Assembly: GCA_963837165.1 (NCBI GenBank)
Contig: CAWIMD010000002.1
Coordinates: forward strand, 1,543,029 to 1,607,028
Source of the DNA: Vicinamibacteria bacterium
Lineage (GTDB): Bacteria; Acidobacteriota; Vicinamibacteria; Vicinamibacterales; JAENWD01
DNA length: 64,000 nt
Direction: 5' to 3'
This document shows positions 5,132 to 60,177 of this stretch, piece after piece. Each line of letters begins with the position of its first letter. Within the stretch, counting starts at the first letter, position 1. Under the pieces are notes generated by a model. The model was not told the DNA's origin and made no database searches. It worked only from the letters and a program-made list of their open reading frames with translations. The translations under genes and the position numbers were made by a program.

Positions 5132-5172
5132 CCTATCCTCCTATCCTCCTATCCTCCTATTCTCCTATCCTC

Positions 5173-5187
<15 letters not shown>
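5132..5187. repeat. Family A octamer array, CCTATCCT x7 (minus strand reads AGGAGGAT)
   Basis: Read directly. The metH stop TAG (5173-5175) lies inside the array. It is followed downstream (on the minus strand) by the kinase promoter and start. Confidence 0.95.
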
Positions 5188-8910
<3,723 letters not shown>

Positions 8911-9912
8911 TTCAGTCCTTCGTGCCCTTTGTGCCCTTTGTGTTCGTCGTGCCCTTTGTGTCCCTTCGTGTTCTTCGTGTTCTTCGTGTCCTTCGTGTAC
9001 CCCTGACGCGACGATGACGGTGAACGGGTCGCCCGTCAGGCGCGCGCCCACACTGGTCCGCACGGTCGTCAGCCCCGCCTCCTTCATCAGCCGGGCCAGG
9101 TCCGCGACGTCGAAGCCGAGCCACCGGTCGCCGAAGCGCTCGCGGACCCAGGTCTCGTCGTGCGTCCGCAGGTCGAGCACCAGCACACGGCCGCCGGGCC
9201 GCACGATGCGGGTGGCCTCGGCGAGGGCGCGGGCGGGGTCGGCGGCGTGGTGCAGCGCCTGCGACAGCAGCGCCACGTCCACCGAGCCGTCGGGGAGCGG
9301 CAGGCGCTCGAGATCGGCGCGCTTCCAGGTGACGTTGGTCACCTTGCGCCGACGCGCCAGGGCGCGGGCCCGGTCGAGGACCTCGGCCGACCGATCCACC
9401 GCCACGACGCGGCGTGCCCAGCGGGCGGCTTCCACGGTCAGGTACCCCTCGCCGCAACCGAGGTCGGCCACGTCCCACGCCGGCAGCAGGTGCCCGAGCG
9501 CGCGGGCCCAGGCGGCCCAGCTGCGTCCCGGCACGAGCTGACGGCCATCGCCGTGCGTGGCGAAGCTCTCCTTCCGGAGCCGCAGCACCTCCTTGAGCCG
9601 GGCGTGATCGGCGCGGGCGGCCGGGTCCGACGCCGCCGCGGCGAACCCGGCCTCGAGCAGGGGCCAGAGCGCGGCCGGGCCCGTCCGCCGGTCGGGCGGC
9701 GGCACCTGGAACCAGGTGTAGCCCCCCTCGCGCCGCTCCTCGACCAGCCCGCTCTCGCGCAGCAGGCCAAGGTGGCGCGAGACGCCGGACTGCGCGATGC
9801 CCAGGATGCCGGTCAGCTCGGTCACGTTGAGCCGCTCGGCCGCCAGCAGCCGCAGCAGGCGGAGCCGGACCTCGTCGCCGAGCAGCCGGAACAGGGCCGA
9901 CGCGTCCTTCAC
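8911..9912 (-). CDS. ArsR/SmtB-family HTH fused to a class I SAM-dependent methyltransferase; no stop codon of its own, reads in frame through a repeat array into metH
   Basis: GTG 9912 begins [57 protein letters not shown] (ArsR wHTH). [12 protein letters not shown] (SAM motif I) follows. The domain ends around ...[12 protein letters not shown]. The nonamer array is then translated ([29 protein letters not shown]) up to the metH ATG. Confidence 0.8.
8916..8997. repeat. Family D nonamer array, 9 units (minus strand reads CACGAAGGA-type); eight 9-mers plus one 10-mer
   Basis: The plus strand reads TCCTTCGTG CCCTTTGTG CCCTTTGTG TTCGTCGTG CCCTTTGTG TCCCTTCGTG TTCTTCGTG TTCTTCGTG TCCTTCGTG. The array lies between the ArsR-MT domain and the metH ATG. 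Confidence 0.95.
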
Positions 9913-9919
9913 ATCTATA

Positions 9920-9925
9920 AATCTA
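9920..9925 (-). promoter_or_regulatory. -10-like TAGATT 7 nt upstream of GTG 9912 (ArsR-MT); leaderless geometry
   Basis: It sits in an AT-rich island (ATCTATAAATCTA) within GC-rich sequence. Confidence 0.35.
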
Positions 9926-10510
9926 CATGCGTGGATGGATTGTGGTCAAGGGAACCGGAGGGGGATCTGGGGGGCTGGGGATCTGGGGATCTGGGGGGCT
10001 GGGGATCTGGGGATCTGAGGGATCGGGGGATCTGGGGATCTGGGGGGCTGGGGATCTGGGGGGCTGGGGATCTGGGGGGGCTGGGGATCCGGGGGGGCTG
10101 GGGATCTGGGGATCTGATTTTCTCCGGAGACGTACCGTCCGACCTCGGCGCTCTTCGCTCCTGATCAGACCCATTAGTGGCGCGGCAACCTGACGGACCT
10201 GGCGCTCGAGGGCCGCCGTCGTCTCGTCCGACGTGTACCCGAGACGACGAGCGACGTGGACGTAGTAGCCGACCTCCGCGAGAGACGACCACGAGATCCG
10301 CAGAAAATGCACCGTGTCGCGGTGGTGCGATCGCGCAGTTCCTTCAACGATGTTCGCAGGGACTGAGAGCGCTGCCCGGCGCAATTGCGTACCGAGCACG
10401 AAGCGTTCATCCAAGGGAAATACTTCCTTTGCAAGACGATGCAGCCGGATGAAGAGATCGTCGGCACGCTGCCAGGCCACCAGGGAGCGATAGCGGAGTT
10501 GCTTGGGCAT
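9923..10510 (-). CDS. Four-helix-bundle protein (23S rRNA intervening-sequence protein family) with a repeat-encoded C-terminal tail
   Basis: ORF 9923..10540. The likely start is ATG 10510 ([57 protein letters not shown]...SLAEVGYY). This matches my memory of TIGR02436/PF05635. The last ~55 aa (DPQIPSPP...) are translation of the GGGGATCT array. Confidence 0.75.
9961..10115. repeat. Family B octamer array, GGGGATCT/GGGGGGCT about 19 units (G-rich on plus strand)
   Basis: Read directly. It is the inverted partner of the 10548-10664 array. Confidence 0.95.
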
Positions 10511-10547
10511 GCACCGGGGTAGCCGCAACCCTTGTGCCACCCGGCCT

Positions 10548-10664
10548 CCCAGATCCCCAGCCCCCCAGATCCCCAGATCCCCAGATCCCCAGATCCCCAG
10601 ATCCCCAGATCCCCAGATCCCCAGATCCCCAGATCCCCAGATCCCCAGATCCCCAGATCCCCCC
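10548..10664. repeat. Family B octamer array, CCCAGATC about 14 units (G-rich on minus strand)
   Basis: Read directly. It starts at the stop of the 10664..11101 gene and ends 37 nt before the four-helix-bundle start. Confidence 0.95.
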
Positions 10665-11101
10665 TACGTCCTCTCCCAGTCCGGCACCCAGCTCGTGATG
10701 GCGCGCTTGATCTGGTCGCGGGACAGGTGTTCCCGCACCGCGCGATCGACCAGCGCGGGCAGTTCGCCGTCCGAGGCGAAGCGAAGGCCCACGAGCTGCG
10801 GGATCGTCAGCTGGAGGATCTGCGGCTGCTGCGCCGCGGGCAGGACTTCCTTCAGCCGCAGTCGCATCTCGAGCCGGATGATGCGGTTCTGCAGCGCGGT
10901 GATGTAGGTCCGCGACATGCCGCCCAGCACCAGGACGGCCAGGCCCACCAGCAGCACGGCCATCGATCGCGGATCGCGCGTCGTCCACCACTGGTCGAAG
11001 ATCATGACCACGCCCGTGGTCCCGAGCGCGAAGACGAGATAGGTGAGGTACGGATGGTGTGCGTGGCGGCGGTAGGACTGGGCACGCGCCGAAGGGGACA
11101 T
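10664..11101 (-). CDS. Conserved hypothetical membrane protein (two predicted TM helices)
   Basis: ORF 10664..11119. I moved the start to ATG 11101 (MSPSARAQSYRRHAHHPYLTYLVFALGTTGVVMIFDQWW...AVLLVGLAVLVLGG). I am not confident of any family assignment. Confidence 0.6.
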   Translation of the reverse strand: MSPSARAQSYRRHAHHPYLTYLVFALGTTGVVMIFDQWWTTRDPRSMAVLLVGLAVLVLGGMSRTYITALQNRIIRLEMRLRLKEVLPAAQQPQILQLTIPQLVGLRFASDGELPALVDRAVREHLSRDQIKRAITSWVPDWERT

Positions 11102-11109
11102 GTGGTTTC

Positions 11110-11143
11110 CAATCGTCAATCGTCAATCGTCAATCGTCAATGA
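11110..11143. repeat. Family C heptamer array, CAATCGT x4 plus a partial unit (minus strand reads ACGATTG)
   Basis: It lies between the ilvA stop (11152) and the start at 11101. Confidence 0.95.
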
Positions 11144-12758: not shown

Positions 12759-12858
12759 TCCCATCCTCCCATCCTCCCATCCTCCCATCCTCCCATCCTC
12801 CCATCCTCCCATCCTCCCATCCTCCCATCCTCCCATCCTCCCATCCTCCCATCCTCCC
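12759..12858. repeat. Family A octamer array, TCCCATCC x12.5, essentially perfect
   Basis: It lies between divergent ilvA (start 12696) and the HlyD operon (start 12923). Confidence 0.95.
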
Positions 12859-21840: not shown

Positions 21841-21915
21841 TCAACTCCCAGGTCCCAATCTCCAATCCCCGACTCAATCGTCAATCGTCAATCGTCAATC
21901 GTCAATGATCAATGG
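21841..21915. repeat. Family C heptamer array: degenerate units (21841-21873) then TCAATCG x4 plus TCAATGA and TCAATGG
   Basis: It spans from the TIGR00300 stop (21902-21904, inside the array) to 4 nt before the ferredoxin GTG (21837). Confidence 0.9.
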
Positions 21916-30760: not shown

Positions 30761-30818
30761 TCCCATCCTCCTATCCTCCCATTCTCCTATCCTCCCATCC
30801 TCCTATCCTCCCATCCCC
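30761..30818. repeat. Family A octamer array, TCCCATCC/TCCTATCC x7
   Basis: It fills the whole gap between the M64 peptidase stop (30819) and the EVE start (30760). Confidence 0.95.
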
Positions 30819-46711: not shown

Positions 46712-46755
46712 CCCATCCTCCCATCCTCCCATGCTCCCATCCTCCCATCCTCCTG
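46712..46755. repeat. Family A octamer array, CCCATCCT x5
   Basis: It fills the space between the divergent -10 boxes at 46704-46709 (minus) and 46757-46762 (plus). Confidence 0.95.
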
Positions 46756-47672: not shown

Positions 47673-48371
47673 TCACCCCTCATCGAAGACGACGACGATG
47701 ACCTCCCCCGGGCCGTGCACGCCGCGCGTCAGCGTCATCTCGATGTCGGCCGTGCGGCTCGGGCCGGTGACCAGGACGAGGTTGCTGCCCTCGTCAGCCA
47801 CGGCGGGGTGGTCCGACAGAAACGCGGCGTACGTCGGGTAGAGCCTGTCGGCGCGCAGCAGCGCGACGTGGACCGGCGGCAGCAGCGACGCCATCCGTCC
47901 GCGCCCCGGGCCGCTCACGAGCACCAGGCTGCCGGTGTCGGCCAGGCCCGCCAGCGCGCCGGTCAGGCCGACAGGCACGGGGTCCAACGCGGCGAGCCGC
48001 CGCCGGCGCTCGTCCGGATCCGACGGCAGCCAGCACGGCTCCACCGCAATGCCGGCCGCGGCCAGCGCCTCCGGCAGACCCGGGCAGTCGAGCCACTCCG
48101 GATCCCACGACAGCAGCCGCGTCGCGCCGCGCTCGGCAAGGAGCGACACGACGCCGTCAACGGCGGCCCGGGCGTCGCGGACCCGAATGGCGTGTCCCCC
48201 GAGCGCCTCCAGCTCTCCCGAGAACTGCCTGGCGAGGGCGTCCGGATCCTGGATCGCGCCGGGCGGCAGCACGAGCGCGCCCGGATGCTCGAGTCGCGCG
48301 GCGGGCGGCAGCACGCCGGTCCGCAGCTGACGGCTGATGGCGCCGAGCACGTCTAGGCGCGGGTCGCTCAT
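47673..48371 (-). CDS. lutC: Lactate utilization protein C (LUD domain)
   Basis: Internal ATG 48371 overlaps the lutB stop (ATGA). It begins MSDPRLDVLGAISRQL and contains GLTGALAGLADTGSLVL...TADIEMTLTRGVHGPGEVIVVVF. Confidence 0.8.
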   Translation of the reverse strand: MSDPRLDVLGAISRQLRTGVLPPAARLEHPGALVLPPGAIQDPDALARQFSGELEALGGHAIRVRDARAAVDGVVSLLAERGATRLLSWDPEWLDCPGLPEALAAAGIAVEPCWLPSDPDERRRRLAALDPVPVGLTGALAGLADTGSLVLVSGPGRGRMASLLPPVHVALLRADRLYPTYAAFLSDHPAVADEGSNLVLVTGPSRTADIEMTLTRGVHGPGEVIVVVFDEG

Positions 48372-49978
48372 CGACGCGACGCCCACTGGGCGAGGAACGT
48401 CTTCGACGCGAACGCCGGGAAGTCGCGCTGACGCGTCCAGCCCGAAAGGTGCCCCGGCAACCAGCGGATCCACCCGTCCCGCGACGCGAGGAGGCGCGTG
48501 ACACGGCGCGCGAGGCCCTGGGCGGCGCGGAACGCCCACGGCCGGCGTGCAAATTGCCGGAACAGCCACAGGCCCGACGTCGCCCAGGTCGCCGAATAGC
48601 CCATCGCGGTGCTGCGATCCCGGAGCGCGAGCAGCATGCGCGGGATGTCGATGCGGACCGGGCAGATCTCGCGGCACGCGCCGCACAGGCTGCTGGCCTG
48701 AGGCAGATCGGGGAACGCCTCCAGTCCCCTGAGACCCGGCGTGAGCACGGCGCCAACGGGCCCGGGATAGACCGACCCGTAGGCGTGCCCGCCGATCTCC
48801 TGATACACGGGGCAGGCGTTGAGGCACGCGCCGCAGCGGATGCAGTAGAGGATCTCGGCCAGCTCTCCCCCGAGCAGGCGGCTCCGCCCGTTGTCCACGA
48901 GGACGATGTGCAGGTGGTCGGGCCCGTCCGACTCACCGTCGGCCGGGACCGCCCCCGGATCCCCGGATCCCCAGCCCCCCAGATCCCCGGATCCCCAGCC
49001 CCCCAGATCCCCAGATCCATGGCCCCCCAGATCCCCGGATCCCCGGCCCCCCAGATCCCCGGATCCCCGGCCCCCCAGATCCCCGGATCCCCGGCCCCCC
49101 AGATCCCCAGATCCATGGCCCCCCGGCCTCCCGGCCGCTCCCCGCCGCGGCCCGGTGATCACGTTCGAGTAGACGGTCAGCTTCTGCCCCGTCGCGCTGC
49201 GCCCGAGCACCTGCAGCATGACGCCCAGGTCCGCGAGCGTCGGCACGAGCCGCTCGATGCCCATCAGCGCCACATGCACACGTGGCAGCGTCGTCGTCAG
49301 GCGGCCGTTGCCTTCATTCGTGCAGATGCAGAGGCTGCCGGTCTCGGCCACGCCGAAGTTGCCGCCGGAGATGCCCATGTCGGCGTTGAGGAACCCCACG
49401 CGCAGCGTGCGGCGGGCGAAGGCGGTCATGCGCGGCACGTCCACCAGATCGGCCTCGGTGGCGCCCAGCTTCTCGCGGAACGAGCGGGCCACGTCGTCGC
49501 GGCTCTTGTGGATGATCGGCCCGACGATGTGCGAGGGGTGATCGTGATCGATCTGGATCACGAACTCACCCAGGTCGGTCTCGAGGACCTCGACGCCGGC
49601 CGCCTCGAGGGCGTGGTTCAGGTCGATCTCCTCGCTCACCATCGACTTCGACTTCACCGCGGTCCGGACGCCGTGCTGCCGCGCGATGTCGGCGACGATC
49701 GCGACCGCGTCCTCCGCCGTCGAGGCCCAGTGGACGTGTCCGCCGCGCGCGAGCACGGCGTTCTCGAACTGACGCAGGTACTCGTCGAGCCGCGCGATGG
49801 TGTGCGCGCGGATGGCGCGCGCGTGATCGCGGACGATCTCGGCGTGCTCGAAGGCTGCCATCCCCGCGTCGCGCGCCGCGACCAGGCGGCTCGTCGCGCG
49901 GGCCATGGCCGCGTGGAGCACGGGATCCTTCAGCGCGAGCTCGACGCGTCGGTGAAATGTCGCCGGAGCAGCGTTCAT
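48368..49978 (-). CDS. lutB: Lactate utilization protein B (LUD domain plus 4Fe-4S dicluster) carrying an in-frame tandem-repeat insertion
   Basis: I moved the start to ATG 49978 (MNAAPATFHRRVELALKD). It contains CIRCGACLNACPVY and LCGACREICPV. Between ...VITGPRR and ADGESDGPDHLHIVLVDNGR sits (GSGDLGGX)x7, encoded by the octamer array. Confidence 0.85.
   Translation of the reverse strand: MNAAPATFHRRVELALKDPVLHAAMARATSRLVAARDAGMAAFEHAEIVRDHARAIRAHTIARLDEYLRQFENAVLARGGHVHWASTAEDAVAIVADIARQHGVRTAVKSKSMVSEEIDLNHALEAAGVEVLETDLGEFVIQIDHDHPSHIVGPIIHKSRDDVARSFREKLGATEADLVDVPRMTAFARRTLRVGFLNADMGISGGNFGVAETGSLCICTNEGNGRLTTTLPRVHVALMGIERLVPTLADLGVMLQVLGRSATGQKLTVYSNVITGPRRGAAGRPGGHGSGDLGGRGSGDLGGRGSGDLGGRGSGDLGGHGSGDLGGWGSGDLGGWGSGDPGAVPADGESDGPDHLHIVLVDNGRSRLLGGELAEILYCIRCGACLNACPVYQEIGGHAYGSVYPGPVGAVLTPGLRGLEAFPDLPQASSLCGACREICPVRIDIPRMLLALRDRSTAMGYSATWATSGLWLFRQFARRPWAFRAAQGLARRVTRLLASRDGWIRWLPGHLSGWTRQRDFPAFASKTFLAQWASRR
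48952..49130. repeat. Family B octamer array inside lutB (CCCCAGAT/CCCCGGAT/CCCCGGCC; 24-nt super-unit x7)
   Basis: Read directly. The minus strand encodes GSGDLGG[RHW] x7 in the lutB frame. Confidence 0.95.
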
Positions 49979-49985
49979 GCGCGTT

Positions 49986-50020
49986 TCAATCGTCAATCGT
50001 CAATCATCAATCGTCAATAA
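49986..50020. repeat. Family C heptamer array, TCAATCG x5 (variants TCAATCA, TCAATAA)
   Basis: It contains the lutA stop (50000-50002) and ends 8 nt from the lutB ATG 49978. Confidence 0.95.
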
Positions 50021-56131: not shown

Positions 56132-57811
56132 ATGACCTTCGTGCCGCTCCACCGCAGCCGCAGCGCCGCGATCACCGAGGGGCCGCACCGCGCGCCCGCC
56201 CGCGCGATGCTGAAGGCCGCCGGCTTCGATGACGAGGCCCTCCGGCGTCCGCTCGTCGGCATCGCCAACACCTGGATCGAGATCGGCCCGTGCAACTACC
56301 ACCTGCGCGAGCTGGCCGCGCACGTCAAGCAGGGCGTGCGCGAGGCCGGCGGCACGCCGATGGAGTTCAACACGGTCTCCATCTCCGACGGCATCACGAT
56401 GGGCAGTCCCGGCATGCGGGCCTCGCTCATCAGCCGCGAGGTCATCGCCGATTCCATCGAGCTCGTCTCGCGCGGCAACTGCTTCGACGCCGTCGTGGCG
56501 CTCTGCGGCTGCGACAAGACGATCCCCGGCACGACGATGGCGGTGGCGCGGCTGGGGGTGCCGGGCCTGGTCCTCTACGGCGGGTCGATTGCCCCGGGCC
56601 GGTTCCACGGTCACGACGTCAGCATCCAGGACGTCTTCGAGGCGGTGGGAGCCCACGCCGCGGGCAAGATGAGCGACGCGGACCTCAAGGACCTGGAAGA
56701 CCACGCGTGCCCGGGCTCGGGGGCCTGCGGCGGGCAGTTCACCGCCAACACGATGGCCACGGCCATCGAGTTCCTGGGCATCGCGCCCATGGGCAGCGGC
56801 TCGGTCCCGGCCACCGACGCGGGCAAGGGCGAGGTGGGCCGCCAGGCGGGACGCCTCGTCATGGAGCTGCTGCGCCGCGACCTGACCCCAGGCCAGATTC
56901 TCACGCGGCAGGCGATCGAGAACGCCATCGCGGCCGTCGTGGCCACCGGCGGCTCGACCAACGCCGTGCTGCACCTGCTCGCGATTGCGCGGGAATCCGG
57001 GCTGCCGCTCGAGATCGACGACTTCGATCGCATCAGCCGGAAAGTGCCCCTGCTGGCCGACCTCAAGCCGGCCGGGCGCTTCATGGCCACCGACCTGCAT
57101 CGTGCGGGCGGCATCCGCCTGGTGGCCCGCCGCCTGCTCGACGCCGGTCTGCTCCACGGCGACCAGCTCACGGTGACGGGCCGCACGATCGCGGACGAGG
57201 CGCGCGAGGCGGTCGAGACCGAGGGCCAGGAAGTCGTGCGGCCGCTGGATCGGCCGATAAAGCCCACCGGGGGCCTGGCGATCCTGAAGGGCAACCTGGC
57301 GCCCGCGGGCGCCGTGATCAAGGTGGCCGGCTCGAACCTGCAGCACCACCGCGGGCCCGCACGCGTCTTCGAGGGCGAGCAGCCGGCGCTCGACGCCGTG
57401 CTGCACAACCAGATCAGGCCGGGCGACGTCGTGGTCATCCGCGGTGAGGGGCCCAGGGGCGGGCCGGGCATGCCCGAGATGCTGGCCGTGACCGCCGCCA
57501 TCGTCGGGGCCGGGCTGGGCGAGTCGGTGGTGCTGCTGACCGACGGCCGGTTCTCGGGCGCCACCCGCGGGCTGATGGCCGGGCATGTCGCCCCGGAGGC
57601 CGCCTCCGGCGGGCCGATTGCCGCCGTGCACGAAGGCGACATCATCGTCTTCGACGTGCCGGAGCGCCGGCTCGACGTCGAGCTGTCGCCCGAGGAGATC
57701 GCGCACCGGCTCGCGGCGTACGTGCCGCCGGCGCCGCGCTACACGTCGGGCGTGATGGCGAAATACGCGCGGCTGGTCGCGTCGGCGGCGGAAGGCGCCG
57801 TCACGGGCTGA
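56132..57811 (+). CDS. ilvD: Dihydroxy-acid dehydratase
   Basis: 559 aa. It contains CDKTIPG and TDGRFSGATRG. Confidence 0.9.
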   Translation: MTFVPLHRSRSAAITEGPHRAPARAMLKAAGFDDEALRRPLVGIANTWIEIGPCNYHLRELAAHVKQGVREAGGTPMEFNTVSISDGITMGSPGMRASLISREVIADSIELVSRGNCFDAVVALCGCDKTIPGTTMAVARLGVPGLVLYGGSIAPGRFHGHDVSIQDVFEAVGAHAAGKMSDADLKDLEDHACPGSGACGGQFTANTMATAIEFLGIAPMGSGSVPATDAGKGEVGRQAGRLVMELLRRDLTPGQILTRQAIENAIAAVVATGGSTNAVLHLLAIARESGLPLEIDDFDRISRKVPLLADLKPAGRFMATDLHRAGGIRLVARRLLDAGLLHGDQLTVTGRTIADEAREAVETEGQEVVRPLDRPIKPTGGLAILKGNLAPAGAVIKVAGSNLQHHRGPARVFEGEQPALDAVLHNQIRPGDVVVIRGEGPRGGPGMPEMLAVTAAIVGAGLGESVVLLTDGRFSGATRGLMAGHVAPEAASGGPIAAVHEGDIIVFDVPERRLDVELSPEEIAHRLAAYVPPAPRYTSGVMAKYARLVASAAEGAVTG

Positions 57812-57862
57812 GCATTGATGATTGAGCATTGACGATTGACGATTGACGATTGGATGGATTGA
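57812..57862. repeat. Family C heptamer array in GATTGAC orientation, about 7 units
   Basis: It starts immediately after the ilvD TGA (57809-57811) and ends at the GAGGG SD of ilvB. Confidence 0.95.
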
Positions 57863-57869
57863 GGGTGCG

Positions 57870-59576
57870 ATGAAGAAGACCGGAGCGCAGATCATCTGGG
57901 AGTCGCTGCTGCGGCAGGGCGTCAGCACGGTGTTCGGGTACCCGGGCGGGGCGATCCTGCCGGCGTACGACGCGATGACGCAGTACCCGATCCGGCACGT
58001 GCTGGTGCGCCATGAGCAGGGCGCGACGCACATGGCCGACGGCTTCGCGCGCGCCACGGGCCAGGTCGGCGTCGCCATCGCCACCTCGGGTCCCGGCGCG
58101 ACCAACATGGTGACCGGCATCGCCACCGCCATGCTCGACTCCTCGCCCATCGTCTGCATCACGGGCCAGGTCGGCAGCAAGCTGATCGGCAGCGACGCCT
58201 TCCAGGAGACCGACATCACCGGCGTCACCCTGCCCATCACCAAGCACAACTACCTGGTCACGCGCGCCGACGATGTCGCGCCGACCATCCGGGAAGCGTT
58301 TCACGTGGCGGCGTCTGGGCGCCCCGGGCCCGTGCTGATCGACATCACGAAGGACGCGCAGCAGACCAGCTGCGAGTTCGACTGGGAGGCCGCCGACGTG
58401 AAGCCGCGCGGATACCGGCCCGACCACCGGCCGGCGCAGGCGGACTTCGCGAGGGCGGCCGCGATGATCGGCGAGGCCAGGCGCCCGGTCATCCTCGCGG
58501 GTCGCGGCATCATCCAGTCCGGCTGCACGGCCGAGGTGCTGGCGTTCGCCGAGCGCACCAACACGCCGATTGCGATGACGCTCCTCGGCCTCGGCGGCGT
58601 GCCCGCCAGCCACGGCATGAACCTCGGCATGATGGGCATGCACGGCGAGGCCTGGGTCAACACCGCCATCCAGGAGGCCGACCTGCTGCTGGCCTTCGGC
58701 ATGCGCTTCGACGATCGCGTGACCGGAAACCTGAAGACGTACGCGCCGCACGCGAAGAAGATCCACATCGAGATCGACCCGGCCGAGATCAACAAGAACG
58801 TGCGCGTGGACGTGGCGCTCGTCGGCGACCTCCGCGAGGTGCTCACCGAGCTGATGCCGCACGTGCCCGAGACCGAGCACGTGGAATGGCTCGCGCGCAT
58901 CCAGGAGCTCAGGGGGGATTCCGCCGTCCGGGACATCCAGAACCTCCCCGACAACGGACACCTCTATGCCGCGCACGTCATCAACGATCTCTGGCGCGAG
59001 ACCGACGGCAACGCCATCGTCGTAACCGACGTGGGCCAGCACCAGATGTGGGAGGCGCAGTACTACAAGCACAACACGCCGCGGTCGCTGGTCACCTCCG
59101 GCGGCCTCGGCACCATGGGCTTCGCTCTGCCCGCGGCCATCGGCGCCAAGATCGCGCGGCCAGACGCCGAGGTCTGGGTCGTCGTCGGTGACGGCGGCTT
59201 CCAGATGACGATGTGCGAGCTGGCGACGGTCGCCCAGGAGAGCATCGACATCAACGTCGCCATCGTGAACAACGGCTACCTGGGCATGGTCCGGCAGTGG
59301 CAGGAGTTCTTCTACGAGAAGCGGTACGCCGCCACGCCGCTGGTCAACCCGAACTTCACCAAGCTGGCCGAGGCGTTCGGCCTGACGGGCATCACGGTGA
59401 CGCGGCGGAACGAGGTGGTGCCCGCCGTGCGCGCCGCCCGCAACCACCGCGGCGGCGTCGTCATCGACTTCCAGGTGGAGCAGGAAGACTCGGTGTACCC
59501 GATGGTGCCGGCCGGAGCGGACCTGCACGCGATGATCCGCCGGCCGAGCCCGATCGTGGAAACGGCTGCCGATTGA
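57870..59576 (+). CDS. ilvB: Acetolactate synthase large subunit (biosynthetic, ThDP-dependent)
   Basis: I moved the start to ATG 57870 (MKKTGAQIIWESLLRQGVSTVFGYPGGAILPAYD), with GAGGG upstream. It contains GGLGTMGFALPAAIGA and GDGGFQM. Confidence 0.9.
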   Translation: MKKTGAQIIWESLLRQGVSTVFGYPGGAILPAYDAMTQYPIRHVLVRHEQGATHMADGFARATGQVGVAIATSGPGATNMVTGIATAMLDSSPIVCITGQVGSKLIGSDAFQETDITGVTLPITKHNYLVTRADDVAPTIREAFHVAASGRPGPVLIDITKDAQQTSCEFDWEAADVKPRGYRPDHRPAQADFARAAAMIGEARRPVILAGRGIIQSGCTAEVLAFAERTNTPIAMTLLGLGGVPASHGMNLGMMGMHGEAWVNTAIQEADLLLAFGMRFDDRVTGNLKTYAPHAKKIHIEIDPAEINKNVRVDVALVGDLREVLTELMPHVPETEHVEWLARIQELRGDSAVRDIQNLPDNGHLYAAHVINDLWRETDGNAIVVTDVGQHQMWEAQYYKHNTPRSLVTSGGLGTMGFALPAAIGAKIARPDAEVWVVVGDGGFQMTMCELATVAQESIDINVAIVNNGYLGMVRQWQEFFYEKRYAATPLVNPNFTKLAEAFGLTGITVTRRNEVVPAVRAARNHRGGVVIDFQVEQEDSVYPMVPAGADLHAMIRRPSPIVETAAD

Positions 59577-59611
59577 TCATTGACGATTGACGATTGACGA
59601 TTGACGATTGA
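59570..59611. repeat. Family C heptamer array, CGATTGA x6
   Basis: The first unit supplies the ilvB GAT TGA stop (59574-59576). The last unit runs into the AAGGA SD of ilvN. Confidence 0.95.
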
Positions 59612-59621
59612 AGGATCCGAG

Positions 59622-60170
59622 ATGTTGCACACACTCGTCGTGTACGTCGAAGACAAGCCGGGCGTCCTGAACCGGGTGGCGTCCCTGTTCCGCCGCCGGG
59701 CGTTCAACATCGACTCGCTGACGGTCGGCCACACGGAGACGGCGGGCGTCTCGCGCATGACGATCGTCTGCGACGTGGACCCGCTCAATGCGCGGCGCGT
59801 CGAGGCCAACATCTACAAGCTGGTGGACGTGCTGCGCGTGGACGACATCACCGAGGCGCCGGCCGTGGACCGCGAGCTGGCCATGATCAAGGTGGCCGCC
59901 TCGCAGAGCACGCGGGCGGAGATCATCCAGCTCGCCGACGTCTTCCGCGCCCGCGTCGTGGACCTCTCGCCCGACTCACTGATCGTGGAGATCACCGGAA
60001 GCGGCGACAAGATCGACCGGCTCTCGGACGTGCTGCGGCCCTACGGGATCCTGGAAATGGCGCGCACGGGACGCATGTCGATGGCGCGCGGCCCCCGCTC
60101 CGAGCGGCTCGCCGACCAGTTCGCCGGCGAGGATGCGGGCGAGCACAGCGGCGTCTCGTACTCCGTATAG
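59622..60170 (+). CDS. ilvN: Acetolactate synthase small (regulatory) subunit
   Basis: I moved the start to ATG 59622 ([36 protein letters not shown], an ACT domain). AAGGA lies 6 nt upstream. Confidence 0.9.
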
Positions 60171-60177
60171 ACCACGT

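What the first reader, a model, noticed from the sequence alone, without database searches (positions are those of the whole stretch)
9923..10664. Four-helix-bundle (23S rRNA IVS-type) gene enclosed by inverted GGGGATCT arrays more than 100 nt long
The left array (9961-10115) reads GGGGATCT on the plus strand. The right array (10548-10664) reads its exact complement, CCCAGATC. The roughly 430-nt segment carrying the four-helix-bundle ORF therefore sits in the loop of a potential stem of about 115 bp. On the minus-sense transcript the order is (GGGGAUCU)n, then the ORF, then (AGAUCCCC)n. This protein family was first found inside the stem-loop intervening sequences that RNase III excises from 23S rRNA. 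Here the same stem-plus-ORF architecture appears outside rRNA, inserted between a membrane-protein gene and the ArsR-MT/metH unit. The ORF has no stop until it has read through the distal arm. Possible interpretations are an excisable or processed RNA cassette, a mobile IVS-like element whose arms are built from the host repeat family, or a RecA-invertible segment.
Basis: partly seen in the sequence, partly recalled or inferred. Interest (0 to 1): 0.75.

Follow-up and report, generated by a model that had tools for sequence, protein, structure and literature searches.

The report
Four-helix-bundle gene cassette with inverted arrays
A small gene of the "23S rRNA intervening-sequence / Avd" family sits between two mirror-image arrays of an 8-base repeat, and related genes in at least nine bacterial phyla show the same arrangement, which marks a compact cassette that moves and flips and that I could not find described.

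Summary
Arrays 9961-10116 and 10548-10662 are inverted GGGGATCT-type repeats that bracket a 431-nt core. That core holds one intact PF05635/TIGR02436 gene.

The arrangement is not a local oddity:
- In 77 loci with related genes, 84-87% have flanking inverted repeats above the 95th percentile of control positions or control genes. The repeats are usually 7-10-nt tandem arrays, and their sequence differs from locus to locus.
- All eight finished plasmids of cultured cyanobacteria and Gemmatirosa that I examined show it, and so do two viral contigs.
- A homologue 80% identical in protein carries the same arms in a different genomic neighbourhood.
- Syntenic relatives have ORF-less inverted arrays at the window's site.
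- In long-read MAGs the core is inverted relative to conserved flanks at two sites. A third site rests on one short-read contig.
- The gene has lower G+C than its flanks in 75 of 81 loci.
- In Acidobacteriota, including the window, a sigma54-type motif lies between the 5' arm and the ATG.
- The missing stop codon is incidental, because this repeat unit has no stop in any frame.

Best reading: this is an IVS-type cassette located outside rRNA. Mobility and inversion are supported by comparison. RNase III processing of read-through RNA is an inference only, and arm mismatches show no excess of sense-strand G·U pairs. The arrays belong to the known GGGNATC-type quadruplex-forming repeat class. 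I found no report linking that class to this gene family.

The parts
10548..10663 (-). 5' arm on the gene's strand: about 14 units of GGGGATCT (one GGGGGGCT). It starts directly after the TAG stop (10664-10666) of the upstream DUF6526 gene.
   Evidence: TRF. Sequence. Inverted pairing with 9961-10116.
10525..10539 (-). Sigma54-type -24/-12 motif TGGCACAAGGGTTGC, 14 nt upstream of the ATG, lying between the 5' arm and the ORF.
   Evidence: The same motif class (YGGCAC-N5-TTGCW) sits at -22 to -41 in nearly all Acidobacteriota homologues. Weighted score >=12 in 22 of 81 loci versus 1.5% of background windows. Promoter activity is inferred, not shown.
10130..10510 (-). Four-helix-bundle gene proper (PF05635/TIGR02436). 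ATG at 10510. The Pfam domain spans about 10178-10486.
   Evidence: PDB relatives: 2GSC (XCC0516, five chains in the entry) E = 2e-24, and 2RLD. PHROG 'Avd protein of DGR' 6e-8. G+C is 62.5% with GC3 0.69, against neighbouring genes at GC3 0.86-0.95.
9923..10129 (-). Read-through tail of the ORF (69 codons, Pro-rich, SDPQIPSPP...) translated from the 3' array. It ends at TAG 9923-9925, inside the -10 box of the next promoter.
   Evidence: Homologues are 118-150 aa and normally stop at or inside the 3' array.
9961..10116 (-). 3' arm on the gene's strand: about 19 units of AGATCCCC / AGCCCCCC (composite 24-nt period), the reverse complement of the 5' arm.
   Evidence: TRF..
9920..9949 (-). Sigma70-like promoter TTGACC-18-TAGATT of the ArsR-methyltransferase/MetH gene. 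This is the outer boundary of the cassette.
   Evidence: The same promoter sequence is conserved in the syntenic contigs L082-L090.
10664..11119 (-). Upstream co-directional gene (DUF6526, membrane protein). Its stop codon abuts the 5' arm, so read-through from here is the only route to an RNA carrying both arms.
   Evidence: PF20136, E = 3e-33..
5173..9912 (-). Downstream co-directional ArsR-HTH / SAM-methyltransferase / MetH ORF (context).

Best explanation
The region is one copy of a compact, widespread cassette. Its core is about 430 nt and holds a PF05635 (IVS-protein/Avd-like) four-helix-bundle gene. In Acidobacteriota the core also holds the gene's own sigma54-type promoter. The core is bracketed by long inverted repeats that are usually built from short tandem units, here the G-rich octamer GGGGATCT. 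This is the non-rRNA counterpart of the ORF-bearing 23S rRNA intervening sequence.

Shown by comparison:
- The arms are a family-wide trait.
- The two arms of one locus stay matched to each other.
- The cassette, arms included, occurs in unrelated neighbourhoods, and the window's site lacks the gene in relatives, so it is mobile or horizontally spread.
- The core flips between the arms on evolutionary time scales.
- Cassettes sit mostly at the 3' ends of genes.
- ORF-less inverted-array hairpins of the same build occupy equivalent sites.

Inferred:
- Inversion and arm homogenisation occur by homologous recombination between the arms.
- In transcripts reading through from the upstream gene, the arms pair into a duplex of more than 100 bp that RNase III could cut, as it does in rRNA IVSs. 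This would let the cassette sit between co-directional genes.
- The gene itself is expressed from the internal sigma54-type promoter as a nearly leaderless mRNA that lacks the 5' arm.
- The missing stop codon is an accident of this repeat unit.
For: Architecture and family membership.

Recurrence:
- In 77 loci, 87% have an inverted-repeat score above the 95th percentile of 1747 shifted control positions and 75% are above the 99th (Mann-Whitney p = 8e-42). Direct repeats are not enriched.
- Against 235 control genes in the same loci, 84% of the family's genes exceed the control 95th percentile. Only 1.3% of control genes reach the family median.
- Some arms are not short-period arrays: L007 has a 16-nt unit, and L031, L014 and L004 have long imperfect inverted repeats. 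What is conserved is therefore the inverted repeat itself.
- Independent replication: 8 of 8 finished plasmids of cultured Calothrix, Nostoc, Anabaena, Aulosira, Geminocystis, Picosynechococcus and Gemmatirosa, and 2 of 2 viral contigs.

Locus-specific arms: an upstream arm's best partner among 77 downstream arms is its own in 25 cases, where 1 is expected.

Mobility:
- L161 encodes a protein 80% identical. It has GGGATCT/GGGGATCT arms and the same sigma54-type motif, but different neighbours.
- The syntenic IlvA-DUF6526-ArsR contigs lack the gene. L085 and L087 carry adjacent (GGTGCTN)n/(NAGCACC)n arrays there, and L082 carries the same arrays with a 148-nt spacer.
- The gene's G+C is below that of its flanks in 75 of 81 loci, p = 2e-14.

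Inversion: L009 versus L010 has flanks 89-95% identical in minus orientation and a core 88.7% identical in plus orientation. L001 versus L061 shows the same pattern. In all, 7 of 28 pairs are inverted.

Placement: 26 convergent contexts versus 6 divergent.

Loop contents: in this sample, every inverted array pair with a 350-500-nt spacer encloses a family member, with one exception, a pair formed by arms of two adjacent elements. ORF-less pairs have spacers of 153 nt or less.

Sigma54-type motif.

IVS precedent: stem plus S23p ORF, RNase III excision (PMC4990558).
Against: - Arm mismatches show no excess of sense-strand G·U pairs: 135 sense-type versus 182 antisense-type. Nothing therefore indicates selection on pairing in the sense RNA.
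- The internal sigma54-type motif means the gene's own mRNA would not contain the 5' arm.
- In the window, ribosomes would translate through the 3' arm.
- The arms are imperfect. The left array has only 77% matches to its consensus.
- The protein has no known catalytic activity, no transposase or recombinase lies next to the cassette, and I saw no target-site duplication. The means of movement is therefore unknown.
- No Rfam family matches.
- Inversion was seen in homologous cassettes, not in the window copy. The third inverted site rests on a 2.9-kb short-read contig (L027), where misorientation between inverted repeats cannot be excluded.
- There are no expression data of any kind.
Confidence: 0.6

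Rival explanations
1. The arrays are general intergenic elements of these genomes: G-quadruplex-forming or hairpin-forming short tandem repeats that act as terminators, insulators or mRNA stabilisers. The four-helix-bundle gene merely tends to land or persist between them, with no functional coupling.
For: - The window is full of 7-9-nt arrays at gene boundaries.
- ilvN is also bracketed by inverted arrays.
- 22 ORF-less inverted pairs were found, with the same 5'-purine-rich polarity.
- Relatives have ORF-less hairpins at the same site.
- Rehm et al. 2015 describe 70-75 convergent GGGAATC pairs per Xanthomonas genome and the same placement rule (PMC4692102).
Against: - The association is highly specific from the gene's side: 84-87% versus 1-5% of controls.
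- It holds in genomes where few other arrays are seen within the 6-kb loci.
- The same arms accompany the gene into a different context.
- Apart from one pair formed by arms of adjacent elements, loops of 350-500 nt contained only this gene family.
Confidence: 0.12
2. The cassette is a programmed invertible switch (phase variation). Recombination between the arms flips the core and changes what read-through transcription produces: sense versus antisense of the gene, and transcription into the downstream ArsR-MetH unit.
For: - The core is inverted relative to conserved flanks in 7 of 28 orthologous pairs, representing two sites in long-read MAGs and a third resting on a short-read contig.
- The arms are 115-155 bp, long enough for RecA-mediated recombination.
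- The two arms of a locus stay matched to each other.
Against: - No invertase lies next to the cassette.
- The sigma54-type promoter lies inside the invertible part and drives the gene in either orientation.
- Where both flanking genes point the same way, the gene is co-oriented with them 33 times versus 9, so orientation is not neutral.
- No within-population heterogeneity data are available.
Confidence: 0.1
3. The arrays are binding sites for the pentameric four-helix-bundle protein itself, in the manner of TRAP (the ring protein that binds tandem trinucleotide repeats in trp leader RNA) or of RAYT (the transposase flanked by the REP repeats it acts on). Binding would serve autoregulation, or propagation and maintenance of the repeat family across the genome.
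For: - PDB relatives: the 2GSC and 2RLD entries each hold five chains, and XCC0516 is described as a homopentamer (Lin et al. 2006, cited in PMC4990558).
- The family includes Avd of diversity-generating retroelements. That Avd binds nucleic acid is from my own knowledge, not from a tool result.
- Units are degenerate around a fixed core, (R)GAC-N-AC in Verrucomicrobiota and relatives and GGGC/GGTC-RGG in Acidobacteriota.
- Arm similarity rises with protein identity even between different contexts (Spearman rho = 0.27).
- An array of the same family also lies inside a LutB-like gene in the window.
- XCC0516 sits next to a GGGAATC array of its genome's dominant family.
Against: - Homologues 75-80% identical have different units: GGGGATCT versus one inferred to be GGGAGTG-like from N-terminal tails.
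- Most arrays in the window belong to other families, and the 64 kb holds only one such gene.
- There are no binding data.
Confidence: 0.15
4. Assembly artefact or chance.
For: Tandem and inverted repeats are error-prone in assembly.
Against: The same architecture appears in dozens of independent assemblies, in long-read MAG contigs of 0.3-1.2 Mb, and in finished plasmids of cultured strains. z = -16 against shuffles.
Confidence: 0.01

Closest known systems
ORF-bearing intervening sequences (IVS) of 23S rRNA (Leptospira, Coxiella burnetii; S23p ORF)
   Same: Same protein family in the loop. The core is of similar size (431 nt here, against 428-444 nt for the Coxiella element). Terminal inverted repeats form a stem around the ORF. 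It is regarded as a selfish, horizontally acquired element. ORF-less versions exist (PMC4990558).
   Different: The window copy is not in rRNA: its flanks are protein-coding genes and there is no Rfam hit. Its arms are 115-155 nt of tandem octamers rather than a 28-bp unique stem. An internal sigma54-type promoter is present. RNase III cutting is untested here.
GGGNATC-type G-quadruplex-forming heptamer repeats of Xanthomonas and Nostoc (Rehm et al. 2015, PMC4692102); cyanobacterial STRR heptamers
   Same: G-rich short tandem units (GGGAATC, GGGGA(C/T)T; here GGGGATCT). [quoted passage not shown] Their function is unknown. The placement and polarity rule is the same.
   Different: The period here is 8, not 7. 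That study did not connect the repeats to PF05635 genes, although its table places repeat #15 over the start of XCC0516, the crystallised family member. The present analysis shows the gene-repeat link across phyla and with many different units.
REP/REPIN elements and their RAYT genes
   Same: A single small gene flanked by inverted copies of a short repeat that is also dispersed, without a gene, through intergenic regions. This parallels the autonomous versus non-autonomous distinction.
   Different: RAYT is a Y1 transposase with a known catalytic mechanism, whereas the four-helix-bundle protein has none. The arms here are tandem arrays, not single palindromes. Several repeat families coexist in the window alongside only one such gene.
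Avd (accessory variability determinant) of diversity-generating retroelements
   Same: Homologous pentameric four-helix-bundle protein (PHROG hit 6e-8; PMC10053308).
   Different: No reverse transcriptase and no template or variable repeat lies nearby. The neighbours are DUF6526, ArsR-MT-MetH, IlvA, a Ser/Thr kinase and a HlyD-like protein.
Invertons (segments flanked by inverted repeats and flipped by site-specific invertases)
   Same: Inverted repeats bracket a segment that is found in both orientations among related genomes.
   Different: No adjacent invertase. The arms are far longer and repetitive. The promoter lies inside the segment and serves the enclosed gene itself.

Membership tests
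PF05635 / TIGR02436 (23S rRNA IVS protein; four helix bundle protein) | Profile score above the curated cut-off | tested here: met
   PF05635 90.5 bits (cut-off 33.8). TIGR02436 91.3 bits (cut-off 24)..
PF05635 / TIGR02436 (23S rRNA IVS protein; four helix bundle protein) | Conserved motif GxxRxxxSxxxNxxE (Lin et al. 2006, as quoted in PMC3936711) | tested here: met
   R45, S49, N53 and E56 are invariant in alignment A1. The first position is Q42 instead of G.
PF05635 / TIGR02436 (23S rRNA IVS protein; four helix bundle protein) | Pentamer of four-helix bundles | not tested
   Sequence relatives 2GSC (E = 2e-24) and 2RLD each have five chains in the entry. No structure was predicted here.
23S rRNA intervening sequence element | Inserted in a helix of the 23S rRNA gene | tested here: not met
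   No rRNA or any other Rfam family in the window. Flanks are the DUF6526 and ArsR-MT-MetH genes.
23S rRNA intervening sequence element | Terminal inverted repeats form a stem enclosing the ORF | tested here: met
23S rRNA intervening sequence element | Excision from the precursor RNA by RNase III | not testable with these tools
   Needs RNA end mapping in wild type versus an rnc mutant, or in-vitro cleavage.
Diversity-generating retroelement (Avd component) | Adjacent reverse transcriptase and template/variable repeats | tested here: not met
   Pfam scan of the genes annotated between 2471 and 14197 found no reverse transcriptase.
GGGNATC-type quadruplex-forming tandem repeats (Rehm et al. 2015) | Tandem G-rich unit GGGNATC with at least four G-tracts | tested here: inconclusive
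   The unit GGGGATCT contains GGGGATC, and there are 14-19 G-tracts per arm, but the period is 8 rather than 7.
GGGNATC-type quadruplex-forming tandem repeats (Rehm et al. 2015) | Intergenic; G-rich strand on the coding strand within 50 bp after a stop codon, and on the non-coding strand just before the next ORF | tested here: met
   The 5' arm starts directly after the DUF6526 stop. The 3' arm ends 48 nt before the ArsR start.
GGGNATC-type quadruplex-forming tandem repeats (Rehm et al. 2015) | G-quadruplex formation | not testable with these tools
   Needs CD or melting experiments on (GGGGATCT)n.
REP/RAYT system | Enclosed gene is a Y1 (HUH) transposase | tested here: not met
   The only profile hits are PF05635/TIGR02436.
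Inverton / site-specific invertible element | Cognate invertase gene next to the element | tested here: not met
   The genes examined by Pfam between 2471 and 14197 encode no recombinase. The rest of the window was not scanned.
Inverton / site-specific invertible element | Both orientations found | tested here: inconclusive
   Both orientations are seen among related genomes for homologous cassettes. No data exist for the window copy or within one population.

The most novel reading that the evidence does not exclude
The four-helix-bundle (Avd/IVS-type) protein and its inverted arrays form a self-propagating pair. The pentamer would recognise the tandem units as single-stranded, hairpin or quadruplex nucleic acid, and would promote their copying, recombination or insertion. 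On this reading these small cassettes are the source and maintainers of the abundant, long-unexplained short tandem repeat arrays (STRR heptamers, GGGNATC repeats) in cyanobacteria, xanthomonads, Acidobacteriota, Verrucomicrobiota and others, and also of the rRNA intervening sequences. This would be a REP/RAYT-like relationship built on a non-enzymatic ring protein.
Probability: 0.15. Interest if true: 0.9.

Novelty: new variant of a known kind. Interest (0 to 1): 0.78.

Why it matters
Three poorly understood things turn out to be physically linked:
- The PF05635 proteins, which are very numerous in metagenomes (1450 hits at E <= 1e-5 in one search) and are still called functionally uncharacterised outside diversity-generating retroelements.
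- The short tandem heptamer and octamer arrays of cyanobacteria, xanthomonads and many soil phyla.
- The origin of ORF-bearing rRNA intervening sequences.

The stem-plus-ORF layout is the normal state of this gene family outside rRNA. The cassettes move and flip. Cultured, genetically tractable carriers exist (Nostoc punctiforme, Anabaena sp. 90, Xanthomonas campestris XCC0516, Gemmatirosa). Together these points make the function of both the protein and the repeats directly testable.

There is also a practical consequence. These cassettes sit inside operons, for example cas6-4HB-cas4 and cmr2-4HB-cmr3, and their arrays can be mistaken for CRISPR-like repeats or can extend ORF calls, as happened here.

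Tried and rejected
- A 7-mer sharing statistic for inverted flanks had a high background in this G+C-rich DNA. I replaced it with local alignment scores.
- I first read the purine-rich upstream arm as a gene-relative polarity that would argue against inversion. I rejected this because an inverted pair is its own reverse complement, so flipping the core leaves the pattern unchanged. The polarity is a property of the pair, and ORF-less pairs share it.
- The G·U versus A·C mismatch test for selection on the sense RNA stem gave no support.
- Rfam gave no match in the window or in two syntenic contigs. PADLOC gave no hit.
- Exact-sequence contig look-ups failed for the window protein and for P0005. 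The DNA for P0004 and for one P0003 contig was not retrievable.
- A DGR reading was rejected because no reverse transcriptase lies nearby.
- The sigma70 scan found no promoter between the 5' arm and the ATG. It found only the ArsR promoter outside the cassette.
- Literature searches found no report of the gene-array link. The library lacks most subscription journals, so earlier mention elsewhere cannot be excluded.
- Neighbour orientation alone was not informative about co-transcription. The upstream neighbour is on the same strand in 62 of 79 loci, close to what I recall as the usual bacterial baseline of about 70% (my own estimate, not measured here).
Full report
**1. What is in the window**

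Two tandem arrays lie at 9961-10116 (period 8, 19.1 copies, 77% matches, GGGGATCT mixed with GGGGGGCT) and 10548-10662 (14.4 copies, 96% matches, CCCAGATC). They are reverse complements of each other. Gapless arm pairs of 60-69 nt are 87-92% complementary in many registers, and no other inverted repeat in the 64 kb comes close. The minus-strand RNA 9923-10700 folds with the arms paired at -477 kcal/mol, which is z = -16.4 against dinucleotide shuffles.

The 431-nt core holds one minus-strand ORF that matches PF05635 (1e-25) and TIGR02436 (4e-26), both well above their curated cut-offs. Its relatives with solved structures are XCC0516 (2GSC, E = 2e-24) and 2RLD, each with five chains in the entry. 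It also matches the PHROG for Avd of diversity-generating retroelements. Homologues start at the position of the ATG at 10510 and are 118-150 aa long. The window ORF runs on for 69 more codons through the distal array to a TAG at 9923-9925.

The core has 62.5% G+C and GC3 of 0.69, in a 70.5% G+C window whose genes have GC3 of 0.86-0.95. All neighbouring genes are on the minus strand:
- IlvA.
- DUF6526, whose TAG stop abuts the 5' arm.
- The cassette.
- A sigma70-like promoter, TTGACC-18-TAGATT (9949-9920).
- The ArsR-methyltransferase-MetH ORF.

There is no reverse transcriptase and no recombinase among the neighbours.

**2. The arrangement is a property of the gene family**

A scan of one genome per GTDB species with an alignment of close homologues returned 80 loci. 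The closest were Vicinamibacteria and other Acidobacteriota, followed by Verrucomicrobiota, Planctomycetota, Elusimicrobiota, Nitrospirota, Omnitrophota, Chloroflexota and others.

Most loci carry a 7-10-nt tandem array 30-150 nt upstream of the gene and its reverse complement just downstream. The unit sequences differ from locus to locus, for example GTAGGGCAG/CCTACCTGC, ACGTGGGAGA/CCCACGTTCT, AGACCAA/GGTCTTT, GGACTACG/TAGTCCCG and CAGCAGG/CTGCCTG. Some loci instead have 16-nt units or long non-tandem inverted repeats. The conserved feature is therefore the inverted repeat, and tandem arrays are the usual way it is built.

I scored the local alignment of the 300 nt upstream against the reverse complement of the 300 nt downstream:
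- 87% of 77 loci exceed the 95th percentile of 1747 shifted control positions in the same loci, and 75% exceed the 99th (Mann-Whitney p = 8e-42).
- Direct-repeat scores are not enriched.
- The window has the highest score of all.
- Against 235 other genes in the same loci, 84% of the family's genes exceed the control 95th percentile, and only 1.3% of control genes reach the family median.
- An upstream arm's best partner among all 77 downstream arms is its own in 25 cases, where 1 is expected. The two arms of a locus therefore evolve together.

**3. Independent replication in finished sequences**

A tblastn search of 72,556 plasmids gave 12 records, all from cultured cyanobacteria or Gemmatirosa. 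All eight that I examined have inverted arrays around the gene (heptamers in the cyanobacteria, an octamer in Gemmatirosa):
- Calothrix: (GGGTGTA)n/(TACACCC)n.
- Gemmatirosa: (GGAGGGCA)n.
- Anabaena sp. 90: (ACAGGTG)n, between cas6 and cas4.
- N. punctiforme: (AGGAGTC)n.
- Picosynechococcus: between cmr2 and cmr3.
- Aulosira.
- Geminocystis: (AAGGGAA)n.
- N. edaphicum: (TAGGGAG)n, antisense between the ribonucleotide reductase genes.

The only two hits among IMG/VR viral contigs show the same arrangement. Misassembly is therefore excluded as a general explanation.

**4. Mobility**

Contigs syntenic with the window (IlvA 82-86% identical, DUF6526 52-59%, ArsR-MT 72-90%) have no four-helix-bundle gene between DUF6526 and the conserved ArsR promoter. 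In L085 and L087 that 204-223-nt gap consists of adjacent inverted arrays of a different unit, (GGTGCTN)n/(NAGCACC)n. L082 has the same arrays with a 148-nt spacer. Others carry an unrelated conserved non-coding element.

Conversely, contig L161 encodes a protein 80% identical. It has GGGATCT/GGGGATCT arms, the same internal motif and AGATCCCC downstream, but a different upstream gene. Two further homologues 78-80% identical also have other neighbours.

The gene has lower G+C than its flanks in 75 of 81 loci, with a median difference of -5.8 points (p = 2e-14). Cassettes favour the 3' ends of genes: 26 convergent contexts against 6 divergent.

In several loci the 5' array begins at the stop codon of the upstream gene, and the 3' array supplies the stop of the four-helix-bundle gene: TAG in GTCCCGTAG, TGA in CCTGACC, TAA in CCTAACC. 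The window's unit AGATCCCC has no stop in any frame, which explains the long tail.

**5. Inversion**

There are 28 locus pairs in which both flanks are homologous. Twenty are collinear. In seven the core has the opposite orientation relative to both flanks. The clearest case is L009 versus L010, both from long-read MAG contigs of 0.4-1.1 Mb. The flanks align at 89-95% identity in minus orientation, while the 560-bp core aligns at 88.7% in plus orientation, with the breakpoints in the arms. L001/L061 is a second independent site. L027 against four relatives would be a third, but L027 is a 2.9-kb short-read contig, where misorientation cannot be excluded. It says nothing yet about switching within a population or about the window copy.

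**6. A promoter inside the loop**

In nearly all Acidobacteriota loci a sigma54-type -24/-12 motif (YGGCAC-N5-TTGCW) lies 22-41 nt upstream of the coding match. A weighted score of 12 or more is reached in 22 of 81 loci against 1.5% of background windows, and 13 or more in 13 loci against 0.13%. In the window it reads TGGCACAAGGGTTGC (10539-10525), ending 14 nt before the ATG. If it is functional, the gene's own mRNA is nearly leaderless and lacks the 5' arm, so only read-through from DUF6526 would produce an RNA with both arms. In the Verrucomicrobiota-type cassettes the 5' array runs to within a few nucleotides of the start codon and no such motif is present.

**7. RNA stem or DNA repeat**

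Mismatches between the arms show no excess of the type that would be G·U in the sense RNA: 135 against 182 of the antisense type, and 19 loci against 40. Together with the locus-specific matching of the arms and the observed inversions, this points to homogenisation at the DNA level rather than selection on RNA pairing. It does not exclude RNase III cleavage of read-through RNA, which would need only an imperfect duplex of this length. That step rests on analogy with the rRNA IVS. In Coxiella the IVS is 428-444 nt, has a 28-bp terminal stem and the S23p ORF in the loop, and is cleaved by RNase III in vitro (PMC4990558).

**8. Polarity**

On either DNA strand the 5' arm is purine-rich or G-rich and the 3' arm is pyrimidine-rich or C-rich. 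This holds in 59 of 67 cassettes, in the eight plasmid cases, and in 18 of 22 ORF-less pairs. Because an inverted pair is its own reverse complement, this is not a polarity relative to the gene, and it is unaffected by inversion. One possible reason, which is an inference only: a C-rich arm transcribed first would be an exposed Rho loading site, whereas a G-rich arm transcribed first allows immediate pairing.

**9. Relation to what is known**

The literature I could search describes PF05635 as functionally uncharacterised, present in rRNA insertions and cas loci, and homologous to Avd (PMC11270868, PMC3936711, PMC10053308).

The arrays fall into a described class. Rehm et al. 2015 (PMC4692102) reported abundant GGGNATC-type heptamer repeats in Xanthomonas and Nostoc. 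According to that paper they form G-quadruplexes in vitro, most are transcribed in X. axonopodis pv. citri, they occur as 70-75 convergent pairs per Xanthomonas genome, and they follow the same placement rule. The authors stated that their function remains unknown. Their supplementary table places repeat #15 six nucleotides from bccP (XCC0517) and overlapping the start of XCC0516, which is the crystallised member of this protein family. The link to the family was not drawn there.

Eight literature searches found no paper connecting the gene family with flanking inverted arrays. The library lacks most subscription journals, so this is absence of evidence only.

**10. Verdict**

The feature is a real, recurrent genetic element and is best described as an IVS-type four-helix-bundle cassette outside rRNA, with arms made of G-rich tandem octamers.
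- Supported by comparison: mobility, arm co-evolution and inversion.
- Inferred: sigma54-dependent expression, recombinational flipping in this copy, and RNase III processing.
- Unknown: the biochemical role of the protein and the means of movement.

I rate it a new variant of a known kind, with high interest, because it ties together an orphan protein family, orphan repeat families and the rRNA intervening sequences, and because cultured carriers make the open questions testable.

Noticed in passing
window 48952-49124: A second array of the GGGGATCT family (composite 24-nt period) lies in frame inside a LUD/4Fe-4S (LutB-like) gene (48368-49996, minus strand). It encodes a (GSGDLGGR)n linker between the two domains.
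   Followed up: partly
window 8915-8998 and 7855-7917: A 9-nt array (GTCCTTCGT) joins the ArsR-methyltransferase to MetH in frame, giving one 1579-aa ORF (5173-9912, minus strand). A 7/33-nt G-rich array lies in a MetH inter-domain linker. I did not check whether the fusion is real or whether the array hides a gene boundary.
   Followed up: no
window 57809-62832; also 11110-11141, 21874-21913, 49986-50018: (ATTGACG)n/(CAATCGT)n heptamer arrays sit at almost every gene boundary of an ilvN-containing gene run (apparently ilvB-ilvN-ilvC) and elsewhere. The unit carries TGA in all three frames and TTG start codons. ilvN (59601-60170) is itself bracketed by inverted copies, and it was the top-scoring control gene.
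   Followed up: partly
window 5132-5185, 12759-12858, 30761-30816, 46712-46753: (TCCCATCC)n/(CCTATCCT)n arrays read (GGATGGGA)n on the minus strand, upstream of minus-strand genes. That gives a Shine-Dalgarno-like GGAGGA every 8 nt.
   Followed up: no
L083 about 860-1010, L084 about 1820-1950, L089 about 1880-2010, L090 (between DUF6526 and the ArsR promoter): A conserved non-coding element of about 150 nt (CAACTACGGACCGTGCCGAGGAGCCCCGACACGGTCCGTAGACCCATGGCGTGATCGG...) occupies the site that holds the cassette in the window. L089, the one of these contigs scanned against Rfam, gave no match.
   Followed up: partly
L164 (Anabaena sp. 90 pANA02), L166 (Picosynechococcus PCC 7003), L169 (Nostoc edaphicum): Family members sit inside operons, each with inverted heptamer arrays: cas6-4HB-cas4, cmr2-4HB-cmr3, and antisense between the two ribonucleotide reductase genes. 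This may explain the earlier report of 23S_rRNA_IVP genes in cas loci (PMC3936711).
   Followed up: partly
Rehm et al. 2015 (PMC4692102), supplementary file 2, repeat #15 (Xcc 622956-622983): A four-unit array of the GGGAATC family (GGGAATC GGGAGTG GAGAATC GGGAATC) overlaps the annotated start of XCC0516, the crystallised four-helix-bundle protein (PDB 2GSC). It lies 6 nt from bccP.
   Followed up: partly
L082 4056-4185: The spacer between the ORF-less inverted arrays contains a nested palindrome (GGCCGAACTAAAGTTCGGCC ... GGCCGAACTTTAGTTCGGCC).
   Followed up: no
L084 751-897 and L100 2268-2414: In some relatives the IlvA-DUF6526 gap also holds ORF-less inverted arrays, (GTGCCTG)n/(GCACCCG)n. 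In the window that gap holds only a short (CAATCGT)n array.
   Followed up: no
L170, L171 (IMG/VR contigs): The only two viral-contig relatives of the gene also carry inverted heptamer arrays. They could be vehicles for horizontal spread. I did not examine whether the contigs are truly viral.
   Followed up: partly
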